A DNA stretch of 64,000 nt from Rickettsiales bacterium UBA2645. GTDB taxonomy: Bacteria > Pseudomonadota > Alphaproteobacteria > Rickettsiales > UBA1997. Positions within the stretch are counted from its first letter, which is position 1, and each line of letters starts with the position of its first letter. Of this stretch, positions 9,001 through 18,000 are shown piece by piece. Where the stretch lies: the NCBI GenBank assembly GCA_002359655.1, contig DENL01000024.1:6067-70066 (forward strand). The letters run 5' to 3'. The position numbers were made by a program.

Positions 9001-12000
9001 TTATGATTCTCGAGGATTTTATTTTTTGCAATTTAAAAAATTAGCTAATTTGTTGACTTTTTTCTTCGACTAGTTTCTCAGATATTATTGCAATAATTTT
9101 GGTATCAGGATTTTTTGAGTAACAAATTTCTTCCTTAGATTCTTCTCTATCAAAATAAATATGAACATTTCTTGATGCTTTCAATTTAGAACTTTCTAAA
9201 GCTTTTACTAAAGCTTCTATGCCTGAGATTCCAATTTGATTTCCTTCGATATTAATCTTTTCTACTTTACAGGCCGGATTTGATAAAGATTCAGCTAGAT
9301 CTTTTGCACCTGCAGCTGTTATTCGATTTCTTTCGAGAGCTATATTAACTAATTTACAAGACTCATTAAGCAAATCTTCAGAAAGATTTTTTATAGCTTT
9401 ATCTGTGATTTCGCAATCACTGAGACTAATAGATGTCAATCTAACAAAGGATTCAGATAATTTTTTTAAAATATCATCTCCAGATTTGCACCCGCAAATA
9501 TCAATCGATTTTATTTTACAATCATAATTCACTACATTCTCAACTAGAGTTTCTACCAAAGTTTTTACTAAAGTTTCCGTTTCAGAGTTTTCTTTGTAGG
9601 CCTCAAGCTCAATGTTTTCTACTTTACAATTTTCATCTCTCAAAGATTCAAACAAATATTTTATGTCTTCATTTCTGAGTTCATAGTTAAAAGTCATAAC
9701 TTCTGGATAAGAGACATCAGAATTTATACCATTGAACATATCATGAAAAATCATGATTTTTTTAACCGGATTATCATTATCTCTCAAAGATACAATTTTT
9801 TCTGCTGCATATTGATTTACACCTTGATCAGTCAAGGATTTTATCAATTCCAATCTGTAGTTGGTTTTTGTGAGTTTATTTGTTTCGATATTTTTCATTT
9901 AGTTCATTCGGTTTATTGATTTATAAAACTATGTAAGCCAATTATCTAATTACTTTTAGATGATCCTAAAACAAGCAGTAATTTTGAAAATAAGAAGAAA
10001 GTCAAAATCTTCTACAGCTTGCCAAAAAAATCTTGGTGATTAACTTTGATGAAAATTTTTCCTCTAAATCTCGTTTAAAATTTCAGTTAACTAAACATGG
10101 CTGGTCATTCGCAATTTGCTAATATCAAGCATCGCAAAGGTGCACAAGATGCTAAGAAAGCTAAGCGTTTTACTAAAATTTTGCGTGAAATTACGGTTGC
10201 GGCGAAAACTGGACAGCCTGATATTAATTTCAATCCACGTTTGCGCAATGCTGTGATTGAAGCACGAACTAATAACATGCCAAAAGATCGCATTGACGCG
10301 GCGATCAAAAAAGCCAGTGGCGGAAATGACACTGAAAATTTCGAAGCAATTCGTTATGAAGGTTATGCACCAAACGGAATTGCAATTATTGTCGAAGCTT
10401 TAACCGATAATCGTAATCGCACCGCAAGTGAAGTGCGTAGTATTTTTACTAAAGCTGGTGGCGCTTTGGGCGAAACTGGATCAGTAAATTTTATGTTTGA
10501 CCATGTTGGCGTAATTCAATTTGCTGCTAAGATTGCTGGCGAAGAAGAGATGTTCGAAGCCGCTCTAGAAGCTGGCGCAAATGAAGTTGAATCTTCTTTT
10601 GATCTTCATGTTATTATTACTGAGATTGAAAATTTTGCTTCGGTCCGCGATACTTTGATTGAAAAATTTGGTGATCCACTTTCAGCTAAATTTGATTGGA
10701 AAGCAAAAAATACCATAGAGGTTTTAGATCTCGAGCAAGCACAAAAATTAATGAAGATGATTGACGCTTTAGAAGATTGCGATGATGTGCAAATGGTTAC
10801 CGGAAATTATGTTTTTTCAAATGAAATTGCAGAAAAATTATAACTAAATTTTTAAAACATGAAAGAAATCGAAATCACTTCGCAACTAATCAAAGACCAT
10901 AATTTAACCGAAGGCGAATATCAAAAAATTTTAGAAATTCTTGGTCGCACTCCTAAAATTACTGAGCTGGGAATTTTTTCGGCGATGTGGTCGGAGCATT
11001 GTTCTTACAAGTCAACCAAGAAATGGTTGAAAACCATGCACACTAAAGCGCCGTGGGTAATTTGTGGTCCGGGTGAAAATGCTGGCGTGATTGATATTGG
11101 TGATAATCAAGCGGTAGTTTTCAAAATGGAAAGTCACAATCATCCATCTTTTATCGAGCCATATCAGGGTGCTGCAACTGGAGTTGGTGGAATTCTTCGC
11201 GATGTCTTTACTATGGGTGCTCGTCCAATTGCTAATTTAAATGCGCTGCGTTTTGGCGAAATCAATCATCAAAAAACTAAACAATTAGTTAACGGAGTTG
11301 TTTCTGGAATTGGTGGATATGGCAATTGTATTGGCGTGCCAACTGTTGCCGGTGAAGTAACTTTCGATAAAAGTTATAACGGAAATATTATTGTTAACGC
11401 TATGACAGTTGGTTTGGCTGATGCCGATAAAATTTTTTACTCTGCAGCTAGTCAAGTTGGCGCTTCTGTGGTTTATGTTGGTTCAAAAACTGGTCGCGAT
11501 GGCATTAATGGAGCCGTAATGGCATCTGACGAATTTAAAGAAGGTGATGAAGATAAACGACCAACAGTACAAGTTGGTGATCCGTTTGCTGAAAAACTTC
11601 TGCTCGAAGCTTGTATGGAATTGATGCAATCAGATTCAATTCTTTCAATTCAAGATATGGGTGCGGCTGGTTTAACTTCTTCATCTTTTGAAATGTCCGG
11701 CAAAGGTGGAACCGGAATTGAACTCAATTTAGAAAATGTTCCTCAACGCGAAACCAATATGACGCCTTATGAAATCATGCTTTCCGAATCGCAAGAAAGA
11801 ATGTTAATGATTATCAAACCAGAAAAAGAAGATTTCGCCCAAGCAATTTTTGACAAATGGGGACTTGACTTTGCAGTGATTGGCAAAGTTACCGATACTG
11901 GTCGCGTAGTGATTAAAATGAATGGCGAAATTTACGCCGATATTCCCTCAAAGCCTCTTTCAGAAGAAGCTCCAGAATATGATCGCGCTTGGGTTTAAAG

Positions 12001-15000: not shown

Positions 15001-18000
15001 GTATTGTTCCCTCACACTTTGTCGTGCCAAAATTTTTACAATATTTCTACGCAATTTTTGTGGTGATAATTGGTTGGGTATTTTTCCGTAGTCCTGATTT
15101 ATCTCACGCTTTAAATTATTTACACACAATGTTTGGTGACGTTGTTGCAGCTTCCACAAATCTCGATACGGCAAGATTGCTTCACTCGCACTTTGTTTGG
15201 ATGTCTTTTGCCCTTGCTATTATTGGTTTTTCGCCATTGGTTAAAAATATTTCCTTAAAGTTAATTCGTAAAAACAAAACTTTCTTTGTTGCTTACGATA
15301 TTTTTTTGATTGGCGTATTTGTTTTTGCAATTATTCGCATTTCAGCCTCGACGCATAATCCATTTATTTATTTTCAGTTTTAGTAATGAAACAAAACAAG
15401 TTTTTAATTATTGCTTTTGCTTTGATTTTAGTGATTCCAGCGCTGGATAACATTTTCAACTTTTCGCCCGTGAAAGAACTTTTTGAAAAAAGAAAAGAAG
15501 TTGCAGCGCCAAAATTTCCCGAATCTTTTGCTGACTTAATTTCTTTTCCAAAAAATTTTGATGCTTTCTTTAGCGATAATTATGGCATGCGTAAAACTTT
15601 AATTACACTTCACAGCGCGCTGATGGATAAAGTTTTTGATGAGTCGCCCAGCTCAAGAGTCGTGATTGGTAAAGAAGGTTGGTATTATTTTAATAATTAT
15701 AATTCGATTTTAGACGCTGAAGGTCAGGCTACAATTGATGATCAACTAGTTGCGCGTGGCGTTGAGCATTTTGCTAAAAATCGTAAACAAGTTGAAGATT
15801 CAGGAATGATTTATTTACTAATTATCGCGGCAGATAAAACTTCAATTTATCCAGAATTTTTGCCAGATTATATCAAGCCAACTCCACTTGGAAATCATCG
15901 CGTTGACAAATTTTTAAATGCGCTAAAAGCAAAATATCCTGACTTTCCATTGATCGATGCCAGACCAATTTTGCTTAAAGCTAAGCTGAAAGAAAAAGTT
16001 TACCAAGAAACTGACACACATTGGAATCGTCGCGGCGCTCACACAACCTACATGGAAATGATGAAAATGCTGGCTAAAAAAAATCCGCGCTTTGTGGCAA
16101 ATCCAAGAAGTAAATTTAAAGATATAGCTAACGAGTGGATCAAAGGTGATATTTCTGATATTATGGGAAATAATGCTTCTAACTTGAACTATGAATTAGA
16201 ACCGAAATTCAAAGAGACTATTCATCAAGTTCAGCCAAATGAAACTGAAAAAAAGAAATTTCACAATGTAACAATTTTCTCTAACGATAATAAAAATTTG
16301 CCACGACTTTTTGTTTATCAGGATTCTTACTTTGCTGATTTAGTTCGTTTTGTTTCGCAGCATTTTTCCTACGCTCTCTACACCAACCAATATCCTTGCG
16401 ACATTGAAATTGAAACGGTAAAAAAATACCGTGCTAATGTTGTGATGCAGGAATTCTGGGAAGGTCGGGTGGAAGTGGTTCTTAATACTTGTAAGCAATA
16501 AATAAATTTTTTTAAAAATGATTCTCGAAAATCTAAAAGCTGTTTTACAAAATCCCAATATTGCATCTAAAAAATGGATCTATCAACAGTACGATTCACA
16601 AGTAATGAATGACACAATTTATACTCGTGGCGATGCAGCGATTGTTCGTGTTCATGGCACCAACAAAGCTTTGGCGATGACTACAGATTGCACACCGCGC
16701 TATGTTGAAGCTGATCCTTTCGAAGGCGCAAAACAAGCAGTTGCAGAAACTTATCGCAATATTTCTGCAGTTGGTGCCAAACCTTTGGCAATCACTAATT
16801 GTTTGAATTTTGGCAATCCGCAAAAGCCTGAAATTATGGGGCAAATTGTGCGAGCGATTAATGGCATCACTGAAGCTTGCAAAGCTTTAGATTATCCAGT
16901 TATTTCGGGAAATGTTTCGCTCTACAATGAAACCGATGGAAAAGCAATTCAACCAACACCAGCAATTGGCGGCGTTGGTCTTTTAAAAGATTTAAAAAAA
17001 AGATGTGACTTAAATTTTAAAAGAGTTGGTGATGAAATTTTTGTGATCGGCAAAACTTCTGGCCATATTAATTGCTCAATATTTGAGCAAGAGATTTTAA
17101 AAACTGAGAGCAAAAAAAATCCGCCAAAAGTTAATTTAGAAGAAGAAAAGAAACATTCTGAGTTTGTTCGTGAGTTGATTGAAAGCAAAGAAATCAATGC
17201 TTGCCACGATATTTCTGATGGCGGTTTATTGGTAAGTTTATTTGAAATGTCACAAGATAATTTTGGCTGCAATGTTGATATTTCATCTCTCGCAACAGAA
17301 TCAGAGGTTGATAAAAATCATTTATTATTCGGCGAAGATCAGTCACGCTATGTTGTGGCTCTTGATCCTGCGCAGGTTCTTGAATTTAAAAAGAAAGCAG
17401 CAAAAAAAACTATTCAAGTTTTTAAAGTTGGAGAAGTTATTAAAGAAAAAATCAAAATTAACGCTGAAGAAATTTTAGTAAAAGAATTACAAGATTTGAA
17501 CGAGGCACTTTTGCCAAAATATTTTTCTTGAACTTAAAATGGTTTCGAAAGCCTTTCAATACACAGCTCTTGCGCTTAAAGTTTTAGAAAAAATTTTAGG
17601 CTCAAAATTTTCAGTTAGCGGTATTGAAAAATTACCAAACCAACCAATTCTCTTTGTTAGTAATCACTTCACGCGTTTTGAAACTTTCGTTGTTCCCTAT
17701 ATAATTTATAAATATTCTGGTCTGCAAATAAGATGCTTGGCGGATTCTGGACTTTATCATGGTAGGCTTGGAAATTTTCTGACTTCTGTTGGTACGATTT
17801 CAACCAAAAATCCCAATCGCGATAGTATAATTTTAAAAGATTTAGTTAGCTCTAAATACAACTGGATGATTTATCCGGAAGGTAGCATGATCAAAAGCAA
17901 AGAAACCAAAAAAGAAAGTGGCTTCGTTAATTATACACCAAATCGTATTGGACCAGTTAGAACTGGCTCAGCCGTGATGGCTTTAAAATCGCAGCTTTAT

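What the first reader, a model, noticed from the sequence alone, without database searches (positions are those of the whole stretch)
10859..17531. purL split at its interdomain linker by a 4.5-kb same-strand gene cassette, with both halves intact
The 379-aa ORF carries all the N-half PurL motifs and stops at ..[12 protein letters not shown]. The 337-aa ORF, 4.5 kb downstream, starts with its own ATG at ..LQNPNIASKKWIYQQYD.., which is where the second half of full-length PurL begins (compare B. subtilis ..EEAPVYHKPSK-[about 30 aa linker]-LLQQPTIASKEWVYDQYD, recalled from memory). Only the variable linker is missing, and neither half has an internal stop. Small-type PurL is an internally duplicated pseudo-dimer, so two separate chains could plausibly reassemble. 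Three acyltransferase genes occupy the gap. This looks like a natural split of an essential purine gene rather than simple decay.
Basis: partly seen in the sequence, partly recalled or inferred. Interest (0 to 1): 0.75.

Follow-up and report, generated by a model that had tools for sequence, protein, structure and literature searches.

The report
Ancient two-gene split of PurL
In this bacterium and a large group of uncultured relatives, the purine-synthesis enzyme PurL is encoded as two separate, well-conserved genes cut exactly between its two mirror-image halves, a natural split I found no published description of and which annotation pipelines misname.

Summary
A 379-aa ORF (10859..11998) carries the PurL N-half. 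A 337-aa ORF (16518..17531) carries the C-half. They lie 4,519 nt apart on the same strand, with three carbohydrate O-acyltransferase genes between them. Only the ~20-aa variable linker is missing.

This is not a one-off event in this genome. More than 300 distinct protein clusters from many metagenomes have the same stop and start positions. The split forms are one clade in a C-half tree. All 124 sampled contiguous-purL loci with both halves fall outside it.

Both halves are under strong purifying selection (dN/dS 0.03-0.08 and 0.09-0.21). They keep 179/188 and 65/66 near-invariant PurL residues. The C-half diverges no faster than in contiguous PurLs.

The content of the gap varies: none (86-nt spacer), MBOAT+AlgX, extra SDF, ankyrin or AT3 genes, or full unlinkage. 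So the 4.5-kb cassette is cargo in a hotspot, not demonstrably the cause of the split.

Most likely the halves form a non-covalent PurM-like heterodimer that rebuilds PurL. A joined model gives pTM 0.90 and TM-score 0.90 to 3VIU. No biochemical evidence exists. I found no literature on this split. I rate it a new variant of a known kind.

The parts
10859..11998 (+). purL-N. It encodes the N-terminal linker domain plus the A1-B1 (catalytic, ATP/FGAR-binding) half of small PurL, 379 aa, and stops right after the conserved YDRPW motif.
   Evidence: NF002290 positions 1-363, E 4e-193; 3VIU residues 4-368; stop position conserved clade-wide; dN/dS 0.03-0.08; 179/188 near-invariant columns kept.
11999..16517 (.). 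The gap between the halves (4,519 nt). In relatives this position is a variable insertion and rearrangement hotspot.
   Evidence: Gap content ranges from an 86-nt spacer to more than 10 kb. No flanking repeats, integrase or transposase.
12022..13968 (+). Cargo gene 1: a fused AT3 acyltransferase + SGNH domain protein (by recollection OafA/OatA-like, not tested here). It is present in only some relatives.
   Evidence: PF01757 + PF19040. (only L092 has a homolog at this place). (gene callers use ATG 12022, 648 aa).
13980..15383 (+). Cargo gene 2: an MBOAT membrane O-acyltransferase (best NCBIfam hit is the DltB model, below its cut-off).
   Evidence: Conserved directly upstream of AlgX and purL-C in the main subclade.
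15386..16501 (+). Cargo gene 3: an AlgX-like SGNH acetyltransferase, the likely partner of the MBOAT protein.
   Evidence: PF16822. Always paired with MBOAT in relatives.
16518..17531 (+). purL-C. It encodes the A2-B2 (auxiliary nucleotide site, glutaminase-docking) half of small PurL, 337 aa, with its own ATG.
   Evidence: NF002290 positions 389-721, E 8e-108; 3VIU from residue 393; the 120 best hits of each search are all stand-alone, 329-349 aa; dN/dS 0.09-0.21; 65/66 near-invariant columns kept; no relaxation.
17539..19698 (+). PlsC-like acyltransferase fused to an alpha/beta hydrolase. It is the immediate downstream neighbour of purL-C in every split locus that extends far enough.
10097..10843 (+). 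yebC (TACO1/YebC family), the usual upstream neighbour of purL-N.
27962..28447 (-). purE (AIR carboxylase). An intact ORF for another de novo purine gene in the same window.
   Evidence: PF00731, E 4e-62.
40194..41615 (+). purF (amidophosphoribosyltransferase). An intact ORF for another de novo purine gene in the same window.
   Evidence: GATase_7/6 + Pribosyltran.

Best explanation
purL underwent a single ancient fission at the linker between its two internally duplicated halves, in the ancestor of a large uncultured alphaproteobacterial clade whose MAG records are labelled Rickettsiales, Rickettsiaceae or Alphaproteobacteria.

Since then the clade has encoded small PurL as two independent genes. 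purL-N encodes the linker domain plus A1-B1, which holds the FGAM-synthetase active site. purL-C encodes A2-B2, which holds the auxiliary ADP site and the surface that contacts the glutaminase.

Inferred mechanism: the two proteins associate non-covalently through the central beta-barrel built from A1 and A2. PurM, ThiL, HypE and SelD dimerise this way as separate chains (recalled knowledge). The resulting heterodimer would rebuild PurL and then work with PurS and PurQ as a four-protein FGAM synthetase.

The intergenic space created by the fission has become a tolerated site for insertion and rearrangement. In this window it holds three cell-envelope carbohydrate O-acyltransferase genes (AT3-SGNH, MBOAT, AlgX-like). 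That cargo is incidental to PurL function.

Shown: the split, its conservation, single origin, purifying selection, retention of invariant residues and variable gap content.

Inferred: heterodimer formation, enzymatic activity and the four-component complex.
For: 1. Same boundaries everywhere. The 120 best N-half homologs are 377-436 aa at 86-93% identity, and almost all end ...PEYDRPW[IV]*. The 120 best C-half homologs are 308-356 aa (nearly all 329-347), and nearly all start M-x(1-5)-LENLKxLLQxPDLASKKW. The 120 best hits to a deep-lineage C-half (L115) are all 329-349 aa.
2. Clean dichotomy. Metagenome loci with C-half identity >=56% are all split. Those at <=52% with both halves on the contig are contiguous, in frame and without stops, apart from one frameshifted contig. 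78 genome loci outside the clade are consistent with contiguous purL. The split forms are monophyletic in an NJ tree.
3. Selection. dN/dS is 0.03-0.08 (N) and 0.09-0.21 (C), with dS >=1. The halves keep 179/188 and 65/66 columns that are >=97% conserved in 93 contiguous PurLs. The C-to-N divergence ratio equals that of contiguous PurLs.
4. The halves persist whatever lies between them: adjacent with an 86-nt spacer, 2.7-7.5 kb of varying cargo, or unlinked next to housekeeping genes.
5. Both halves co-occur on the same contigs, including one of 1.086 Mb.
6. The pathway is present: purE and purF in the window, purC and purS and purH in relatives.
7. The break removes only the variable linker. 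Other PurLs tolerate a ~100-aa insertion in that linker.
8. An AF2 model of the joined halves has pLDDT 90.7 and pTM 0.90, with only the artificial junction (375-384) at low confidence. It superimposes on 3VIU at TM 0.90/0.91, rmsd 2.6 A.
9. [quoted passage not shown] The active site is in A1B1, the ADP site is in A2B2, and A2 loops contact the glutaminase domain (PMC3815217).
10. Not an artefact: two other assemblies are identical across both junctions.
Against: - There is no biochemical or expression evidence that the two proteins bind each other or that the complex is active.
- The AF2 model used a covalently joined chain and an alignment containing contiguous PurLs. It shows compatibility with the canonical fold, not independent docking of two chains.
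- No complete genome of the clade was scanned, so a second contiguous purL elsewhere is not formally excluded. None is in the 64-kb window.
- purQ was not seen in any fetched locus. purS was seen only in a relative.
- The N-half carries nine clade-fixed substitutions at otherwise near-invariant positions. Their effect is unknown.
- The event that caused the break is unresolved (insertion, point mutation plus restart, or rearrangement). Outgroup synteny was uninformative.
Confidence: 0.8

Rival explanations
1. Sub- or neofunctionalisation after the split. The N-half alone forms a PurM-like homodimer that is the working FGAM synthetase. The C-half is kept for a different role, possibly linked to the PlsC-like acyltransferase/hydrolase gene that follows it.
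For: PurM-superfamily proteins are normally homodimers (recalled knowledge). They appear as half-length structural matches to the joined model. The halves are genomically unlinked in many lineages. purL-C is followed by the PlsC-like gene in every locus that extends far enough, often with a gap of only a few nucleotides. The ADP site of the second half is described as of unknown function.
Against: The C-half keeps 65/66 PurL-specific near-invariant residues. It diverges at the same rate relative to the N-half as in contiguous PurLs, which argues for an unchanged role. In the solved large PurL, A2 loops contact the glutaminase domain, so PurQ coupling should still need the C-half. Both halves co-occur wherever contigs are long enough.
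Confidence: 0.1
2. The fission was caused by insertion of a gene cassette (MBOAT-AlgX, with or without SDF) into the purL linker. This is a hypothesis about origin and is compatible with the main explanation.
For: MBOAT-AlgX lies directly upstream of purL-C across the main subclade, and the order yebC-purL-N-...-purL-C-PlsC is co-linear. L098, the one cargo-free adjacent arrangement, is nested among cargo-bearing relatives in the tree, so it could be a secondary deletion.
Against: There are no insertion scars, repeats, integrase or transposase. The deepest lineages lack MBOAT-AlgX next to purL-C: nuoG in L115 and L171-173, secB in L088 and L101. The AT3 gene of this window's cassette is clearly a later addition. 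L098 shows that the split persists with only 86 nt between the halves. A nonsense or frameshift mutation plus a new start, with later insertions, explains the data equally well.
Confidence: 0.35
3. The two ORFs are decaying remnants of a purL pseudogene, and purines are salvaged from a host.
For: The gene content looks host-associated: LRR and ankyrin proteins, type IV secretion parts, ~1-Mb contigs and ~35% GC. Many Rickettsiales lack nucleotide biosynthesis (PMC10847448).
Against: dN/dS is well below 1 while synonymous sites are saturated. The ends are identical in hundreds of sequences. Near-invariant residues are retained. Neither half has an internal stop. purE and purF are intact ORFs in the same window.
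Confidence: 0.02
4. The split is a mis-assembly, or the halves are rejoined after transcription or translation (split intein, trans-splicing, ribosomal bypass).
For: None specific. These are generic possibilities for an apparently interrupted gene.
Against: Other assemblies give identical sequence across both junctions, and the same split is found in JGI, ENA, NCBI and Logan data. The N-half ends and the C-half begins on PurL residues, leaving no room for intein halves. Rfam finds only two tRNAs in the window and no intron. Many genomes have the halves more than 10 kb apart or unlinked.
Confidence: 0.01

Closest known systems
Small PurL (FGAM synthase II; TIGR01736 / NF002290), part of the three-protein PurS-PurQ-PurL complex. 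Solved for T. thermophilus (3VIU) and T. maritima (1VK3, 2HS0, and the PurLQS complex 3D54).
   Same: Same domains in the same order, the same hallmark motifs ([48 protein letters not shown]) and the same predicted pseudo-dimeric fold (TM 0.90 to 3VIU). purS is present in a relative.
   Different: It is encoded by two genes rather than one polypeptide, and the ~20-aa linker is absent. The complex would have four kinds of subunit instead of three. The C-half falls below both NCBIfam PurL cut-offs, and the N-half falls just below one of them (643.3 vs 648).
PurM-superfamily homodimers (PurM, ThiL, HypE, SelD)
   Same: Each chain is one AIRS + AIRS_C unit. Separate chains dimerise through the A-domain beta-barrel (recalled knowledge). 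These are the next-best structural matches to each half of the model.
   Different: Here the two chains differ from each other and are PurL-specific, forming a heterodimer in which only one half carries the FGAR/ATP catalytic site. Neither half is an ortholog of PurM or ThiL.
Large PurL (single-chain FGAR amidotransferase; StPurL 1T3T, human PFAS)
   Same: The FGAM-synthetase core has the same A1B1/A2B2 pseudo-symmetry and an auxiliary ADP site. The structural match has TMq 0.82-0.85.
   Different: Large PurL sits at the opposite end of the fusion-fission spectrum, with PurS-like, PurL and PurQ parts fused in one ~1,300-aa chain. The window's system is the most fragmented form seen here.
Polysaccharide or peptidoglycan O-acetylation pairs of an MBOAT protein with an AlgX/AlgJ/PatB-type SGNH protein, and AT3-SGNH fusions of the OafA/OatA type (applies to the cargo genes only)
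   Same: The domain composition matches: MBOAT next to an AlgX-like SGNH protein, plus an AT3+SGNH fusion.
   Different: Substrate and function are untested. The family comparisons are recalled from memory. These genes are not part of the PurL system and vary between relatives.

Membership tests
Small PurL (FGAM synthase II) | N-terminal linker domain plus an A1-B1 AIRS/AIRS_C unit with the catalytic motifs | tested here: met
   Pfam PF18072+PF00586+PF02769. NF002290 positions 1-363, E 4e-193. Aligned to 3VIU residues 4-368 with the motifs intact. 179/188 near-invariant columns kept.
Small PurL (FGAM synthase II) | Second A2-B2 AIRS/AIRS_C unit (auxiliary nucleotide site) | tested here: met
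   PF00586+PF02769. NF002290 positions 389-721, E 8e-108. 3VIU from residue 393. 65/66 near-invariant columns kept.
Small PurL (FGAM synthase II) | Both units in one polypeptide of about 600-790 aa | tested here: not met
   Two ORFs 4,519 nt apart, each with its own stop or start. The same holds throughout the clade.
Small PurL (FGAM synthase II) | Score above the curated equivalog cut-off | tested here: inconclusive
   The N-half scores 643.3 against a cut-off of 648 (NF002290, fails) and 594.4 against 525.75 (TIGR01736, passes). The C-half scores 361.4 and 329.9, below both. The summed scores would pass.
Small PurL (FGAM synthase II) | Partner genes purS and purQ in the genome | tested here: inconclusive
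   purS and purC lie ~8 kb downstream of purL-C in relative L088. Neither is in the 64-kb window. purQ was not seen in any fetched locus, and no whole genome was available.
Small PurL (FGAM synthase II) | ATP-dependent conversion of FGAR to FGAM | not testable with these tools
   Needs an enzyme assay or genetic complementation.
PurM superfamily dimer | Two AIRS/AIRS_C units packed through a central A-domain beta-barrel | tested here: inconclusive
   The joined-chain AF2 model has pTM 0.90 and TM 0.90 to 3VIU. The chains were covalently linked and contiguous homologs were in the alignment. No separate-chain prediction was possible.
Split-intein or trans-spliced gene | Intein or intron sequence at the broken ends | tested here: not met
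   The ends are PurL residues with no extra sequence. No intron family was found in the window.
Mobile genomic island or cassette | Integrase or transposase, flanking direct or inverted repeats, atypical composition | tested here: not met
   None among the gap genes. Only short chance-level repeats. GC is 0.30-0.38, against 0.35-0.41 for the halves.
Pseudogene | Relaxed selection, internal stops or frameshifts, loss of invariant residues | tested here: not met
   dN/dS 0.03-0.21. No internal stops. Invariants retained. No rate relaxation.

The most novel reading that the evidence does not exclude
The fission changed how the enzyme is built or used, not just how it is encoded. The catalytic N-half may work as a PurM-like homodimer or exchange partners. 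The C-half is followed by a PlsC-like acyltransferase/hydrolase gene in every lineage checked, often only a few nucleotides downstream. It may have become a separately dosed scaffold or regulatory subunit that recruits PurQ, or it may link purine synthesis to lipid or envelope remodelling. That would be a subunit organisation of FGAM synthetase never described.
Probability: 0.1. Interest if true: 0.75.

Novelty: new variant of a known kind. Interest (0 to 1): 0.55.

Why it matters
1. Enzyme evolution. Small PurL is a standard example of an enzyme made by duplicating and fusing a PurM-like unit. A clade that has undone the fusion, and kept both pieces under selection for a long time, is a natural experiment. 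It suggests the covalent link is dispensable. It also supplies ready-made sequences for asking what each half contributes: catalysis, the enigmatic ADP site, PurQ docking and the ammonia channel.

2. Annotation. Pipelines call the C-half 'AIR synthase related protein' or 'hypothetical'. The halves fall below equivalog cut-offs. Automated metabolic reconstructions may therefore score purL as missing or broken, and wrongly infer purine auxotrophy in these Rickettsiales-labelled MAGs. Presence or absence of nucleotide synthesis is central to arguments about host dependence in that group (PMC10847448).

3. Genome dynamics. The new intergenic space has become a hotspot where envelope-modifying and ankyrin-repeat genes come and go. 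It shows how a fission creates room for gene flux in a small genome.

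Tried and rejected
- Representative-library search with the N-half, looking for independent splits elsewhere. The short hits were frameshift artefacts with low-complexity tails, so there is no evidence of a second origin. The library was otherwise uninformative.
- Single-sequence AF2 of the joined halves. The model was useless (pLDDT 33.6). 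I repeated it with an alignment.
- Repeat, promoter and terminator scans around the cargo. Only chance-level matches, so there is no mobile-element signature and no statement can be made about transcription units.
- Search for purC, purS or a second purL in the window. None found.
- Outgroup synteny. None of 124 contiguous-purL loci has yebC or the PlsC-like gene next to purL, so the ancestral arrangement could not be inferred this way.
- Shine-Dalgarno check for the C-half. No gene in the window has a recognisable SD, so its absence says nothing.
- Literature searches for a described purL fission. Nothing found. The archaeal purine review reports splits only in purC and purP.
- First NJ tree attempt timed out and was redone with a faster distance calculation.
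- Taxon identity beyond the MAG labels could not be established. The window has no rRNA.

Full report
**1. The observation**

The + strand of the window carries a tight, co-directional run of genes with gaps of only 2-23 nt:

| Gene | Coordinates |
|---|---|
| yebC | 10097..10843 |
| 379-aa ORF (PurL N-half) | 10859..11998 |
| AT3+SGNH acyltransferase | ATG 12022..13968 |
| MBOAT acyltransferase | 13980..15383 |
| AlgX-like SGNH protein | 15386..16501 |
| 337-aa ORF (PurL C-half) | 16518..17531 |
| PlsC-like acyltransferase/hydrolase | 17539..19698 |

The 379-aa protein has the FGAR-AT linker, AIRS and AIRS_C domains. It matches positions 1-363 of the 723-position PurL equivalog profile NF002290 (E 4e-193). 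The 337-aa protein has AIRS and AIRS_C and matches positions 389-721 (E 8e-108).

On the solved T. thermophilus PurL (3VIU, 725 aa), the N-half covers residues 4-368 and the C-half starts at residue 393. In an alignment with contiguous alphaproteobacterial PurLs, the N-half stops right after the conserved YDRPW motif. The C-half resumes at the helix before PDLASxxWIWEQYD. Only the poorly conserved linker of about 20 aa is absent.

Two contiguous PurLs (L051, L080) carry an insertion of roughly 100 aa in that same linker, so it is a permissive site.

**2. Not an assembly artefact**

A Logan assembly of SRR949847 is 100% identical to the window over 14,041 nt spanning both junctions. A JGI assembly (3300008962) is 99.993% identical over the same stretch. 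I could not establish whether these derive from different samples. They do come from different assembly pipelines.

**3. The split is clade-wide and old**

- The 120 best homologs of the N-half are 377-436 aa at 86-93% identity, from JGI, ENA, NCBI and Logan data.
- The 120 best homologs of the C-half are 308-356 aa (nearly all 329-347) at 70-84% identity.
- The 120 best homologs of a much more divergent C-half (L115, 56% identical to the window's) are all 329-349 aa.
- Gene ends are conserved. Almost all N-halves end ...PEYDRPW[IV]*. Nearly all C-halves begin M-x(1-5)-LENLKxLLQxPDLASKKW.
- In 80 metagenome loci found with the C-half, every locus with >=56% identity lacks an in-frame N-half upstream. 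Every locus at <=52% that carries both halves is contiguous (same frame, no stop, ~50-nt linker), apart from one frameshifted contig.
- 78 loci from reference genomes of other Alphaproteobacteria are consistent with contiguous purL.
- In a neighbour-joining tree of C-half sequences the split forms are a single clade with a long stem. This is a simple distance tree without support values.

Source labels for members are 'Rickettsiales bacterium', 'Rickettsiaceae bacterium', 'Alphaproteobacteria bacterium' and some evident mislabels. I could not place the clade more precisely.

**4. Both halves are functional genes**

- Nei-Gojobori dN/dS is 0.03-0.08 for the N-half and 0.09-0.21 for the C-half, with dS at or above 1. 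These genes have been kept intact through saturating synonymous divergence.
- Of the columns that are >=97% conserved in 93 contiguous PurLs, the window's N-half keeps 179 of 188 and the C-half keeps 65 of 66. The few differences are fixed across the clade. One example is His to Asn in the GRDGIHGA loop, a position where T. thermophilus PurL has Gly.
- For genome pairs whose N-halves are 90-95% identical, C-half identity is 0.72-0.82 in the split pairs. In contiguous PurLs it is 0.75 +/- 0.06. The C-half has therefore not been released from constraint.
- The window also encodes intact ORFs for purE and purF. Relatives show purC and purS and purH. The window holds no second purL-like sequence.

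**5. What lies between the halves varies**

| Arrangement | Loci |
|---|---|
| N-half stop, 86-nt non-coding spacer, C-half ATG; no cargo | L098 |
| MBOAT + AlgX only (2.7 kb) | L096 |
| Ankyrin gene, SDF, MBOAT, AlgX | L001 |
| SDF, MBOAT, AlgX | L093, L112, the P0159 contig |
| SDF, two NAD_binding_9 genes, MBOAT, AlgX (7.5 kb) | L081 |
| AT3, MBOAT, AlgX | this window |
| N-half more than 10 kb away; ankyrin genes or housekeeping genes (trmD, a DEAD-box helicase, cmk, purH, ppa) upstream of the MBOAT-AlgX-C block | L091, L092, L097 |
| N-half followed by unrelated genes, some of them housekeeping | L002, L082, L083, L087 |
| C-half preceded by secB on the opposite strand | L088, L101 |
| C-half preceded by glnA-nuoG (deep lineage) | L115, L171-L173 |

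Two adjacencies are stable. yebC sits upstream of the N-half in most lineages. The PlsC-like gene sits immediately downstream of the C-half in every locus that extends far enough.

The gap genes include no integrase or transposase. There are no flanking repeats beyond chance and no strong compositional anomaly.

My reading is that the fission created an intergenic site where insertions and rearrangement breakpoints are tolerated. The window's 4.5-kb cassette is one state of that hotspot. Whether an ancestral MBOAT-AlgX insertion caused the break, or a point mutation plus a new start came first, cannot be decided. Outgroup synteny was uninformative.

**6. How it most likely works**

Published structural work on Salmonella large PurL describes the FGAM-synthetase core as two gene-duplicated halves with pseudo-two-fold symmetry around a hydrophobic barrel. 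A1-B1 holds the active site. A2-B2 holds an ADP site of unknown function. A2 loops contact the glutaminase domain (PMC3815217).

PurM, ThiL, HypE and SelD form the same kind of dimer from separate identical chains (my recollection of the literature). They appear as half-length structural matches to the model.

I therefore infer that PurL-N and PurL-C form a non-covalent heterodimer that reconstitutes PurL and then binds PurS and PurQ, giving a four-protein FGAM synthetase.

As a compatibility check, I built an AlphaFold2 model of the two window proteins joined end to end. The alignment contained stand-alone halves and contiguous PurLs.
- The model has mean pLDDT 90.7 and pTM 0.90. Only residues 375-384, the artificial junction, fall below pLDDT 50.
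- It superimposes on 3VIU with TM-score 0.90/0.91 and rmsd 2.6 A over the full length.
- This does not prove that separate chains associate. The chain was covalent and contiguous homologs were in the alignment.
- A single-sequence run gave no usable model.

No gene in the window has a recognisable Shine-Dalgarno sequence, so its absence upstream of the C-half means nothing.

**7. Rivals**

- Decay is contradicted by selection, conserved ends and retained invariants.
- Mis-assembly is contradicted by identical other assemblies and by the same split in hundreds of relatives.
- Rejoining through inteins or introns is excluded. The ends carry no extra sequence, Rfam finds only two tRNAs in the window, and many genomes have unlinked halves.
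- One rival remains open: an N-half homodimer is the enzyme and the C-half has taken on a separate role. The unchanged constraint pattern of the C-half and the A2-glutaminase contact argue against it. I give it about 0.1.

**8. Comparison with what is known, and novelty**

By sequence and predicted fold the two proteins together are small PurL. They fail the one defining feature of being a single polypeptide. They also fall below some curated cut-offs: the N-half scores 643.3 against 648 for NF002290, and the C-half falls below both PurL models. NCBI records name the C-half 'AIR synthase related protein' or 'hypothetical protein'.

Full-text searches found no description of a purL fission. The archaeal purine-pathway review lists splits only in purC and purP. 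A recent Rickettsiales comparative paper discusses purine biosynthesis without mentioning purL. The library does not cover all journals, so prior mention elsewhere is not excluded.

I rate this a new variant of a known kind: a real, conserved gene fission of a well-studied enzyme. It is interesting for enzyme evolution and for correct metabolic annotation of these genomes, but it is not a new kind of system.

**9. Verdict**

- Observation: confirmed.
- Interpretation: supported, with two corrections. The split is ancient and clade-wide. The cassette is variable cargo, not the demonstrated cause.
- Confidence that this is a maintained two-gene PurL acting as a heterodimer: about 0.8.
- Interest: 0.55.

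Noticed in passing
window 17531/17539; L088, L091-L115, L171-L174: purL-C is followed by a ~720-aa PlsC-like acyltransferase fused to an alpha/beta hydrolase in every split locus that extends far enough, including the deepest lineage. The gap is often only a few nucleotides (7 nt in the window). This suggests co-transcription or translational coupling. No such neighbour exists beside contiguous purL in 124 other loci.
   Followed up: partly
window-wide: 40 nt upstream of 27 + strand genes, e.g. 10819-10858 and 16478-16517: No gene has a recognisable Shine-Dalgarno sequence. Many starts are preceded by an A/T-rich stretch resembling AAATTTTTAAAA. Translation initiation in this organism seems to be SD-independent.
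   Followed up: partly
L051:10001-12718 and L080:5921-8653: Two contiguous alphaproteobacterial PurLs carry an insertion of roughly 100 aa in exactly the linker where the window's gene is split. The insertion is conserved between the two and of unknown function.
   Followed up: no
window 28476-34355 (-): A 1,959-aa ORF with no Pfam hit, lying between purE and a Mur-ligase-family gene.
   Followed up: no
window 19865-21181 (+); L088, L091-L114: A solitary TrbI/VirB10-like gene follows the PlsC-like gene in the main clade. No other type IV secretion genes lie beside it in the window.
   Followed up: partly
window 9041-9898 (-); L086:2454-9896; L092:195-4156; L001:1328-1912; L088:1-6599; L087: The gene content looks host-interaction-like for contigs of ~1 Mb and ~35% GC. 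It includes an LRR protein in the window, and in relatives ankyrin-repeat proteins up to 2,480 aa, a TPS/filamentous-haemagglutinin protein, and VirD4 and TrbC. Biosynthetic genes (leuC, glyA, purE, purF) are retained.
   Followed up: partly
window 10859-11998 (N-half residues ~215-225): Nine substitutions are fixed across most of the clade at columns that are >=97% conserved in contiguous PurLs, e.g. GRDGIHGATMAS to [12 protein letters not shown]. They may be adaptations that followed the fission.
   Followed up: partly
window 10859-11998 and 16518-17531: Annotation consequence: the N-half scores 643.3 against a cut-off of 648 for NF002290, and the C-half is below both PurL equivalog cut-offs. 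Public records call the halves 'hypothetical protein' or 'AIR synthase related protein'.
   Followed up: yes
L098:290-335: In the one locus with adjacent halves and no cargo, the N-half has a 1-nt frameshift (…FEMSGKAAPELSLT*). This is either an assembly error or a truly broken copy.
   Followed up: no
L175:7082-9242 (equivalent to window 17539-19698): The JGI assembly differs from the window by a single 1-nt indel, which splits the PlsC-like/hydrolase gene into 460-aa and 236-aa ORFs.
   Followed up: no
L115:994-3105; L171-L173: In the deep split lineage, a nuoG gene sits between glnA and purL-C with a gap of 1-3 nt, with no other nuo gene among the called neighbours.
   Followed up: no
window 27962-28447 (-) and 40194-41615 (+): purE and purF are present as intact ORFs but are scattered, not in a pur operon.
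   Followed up: partly
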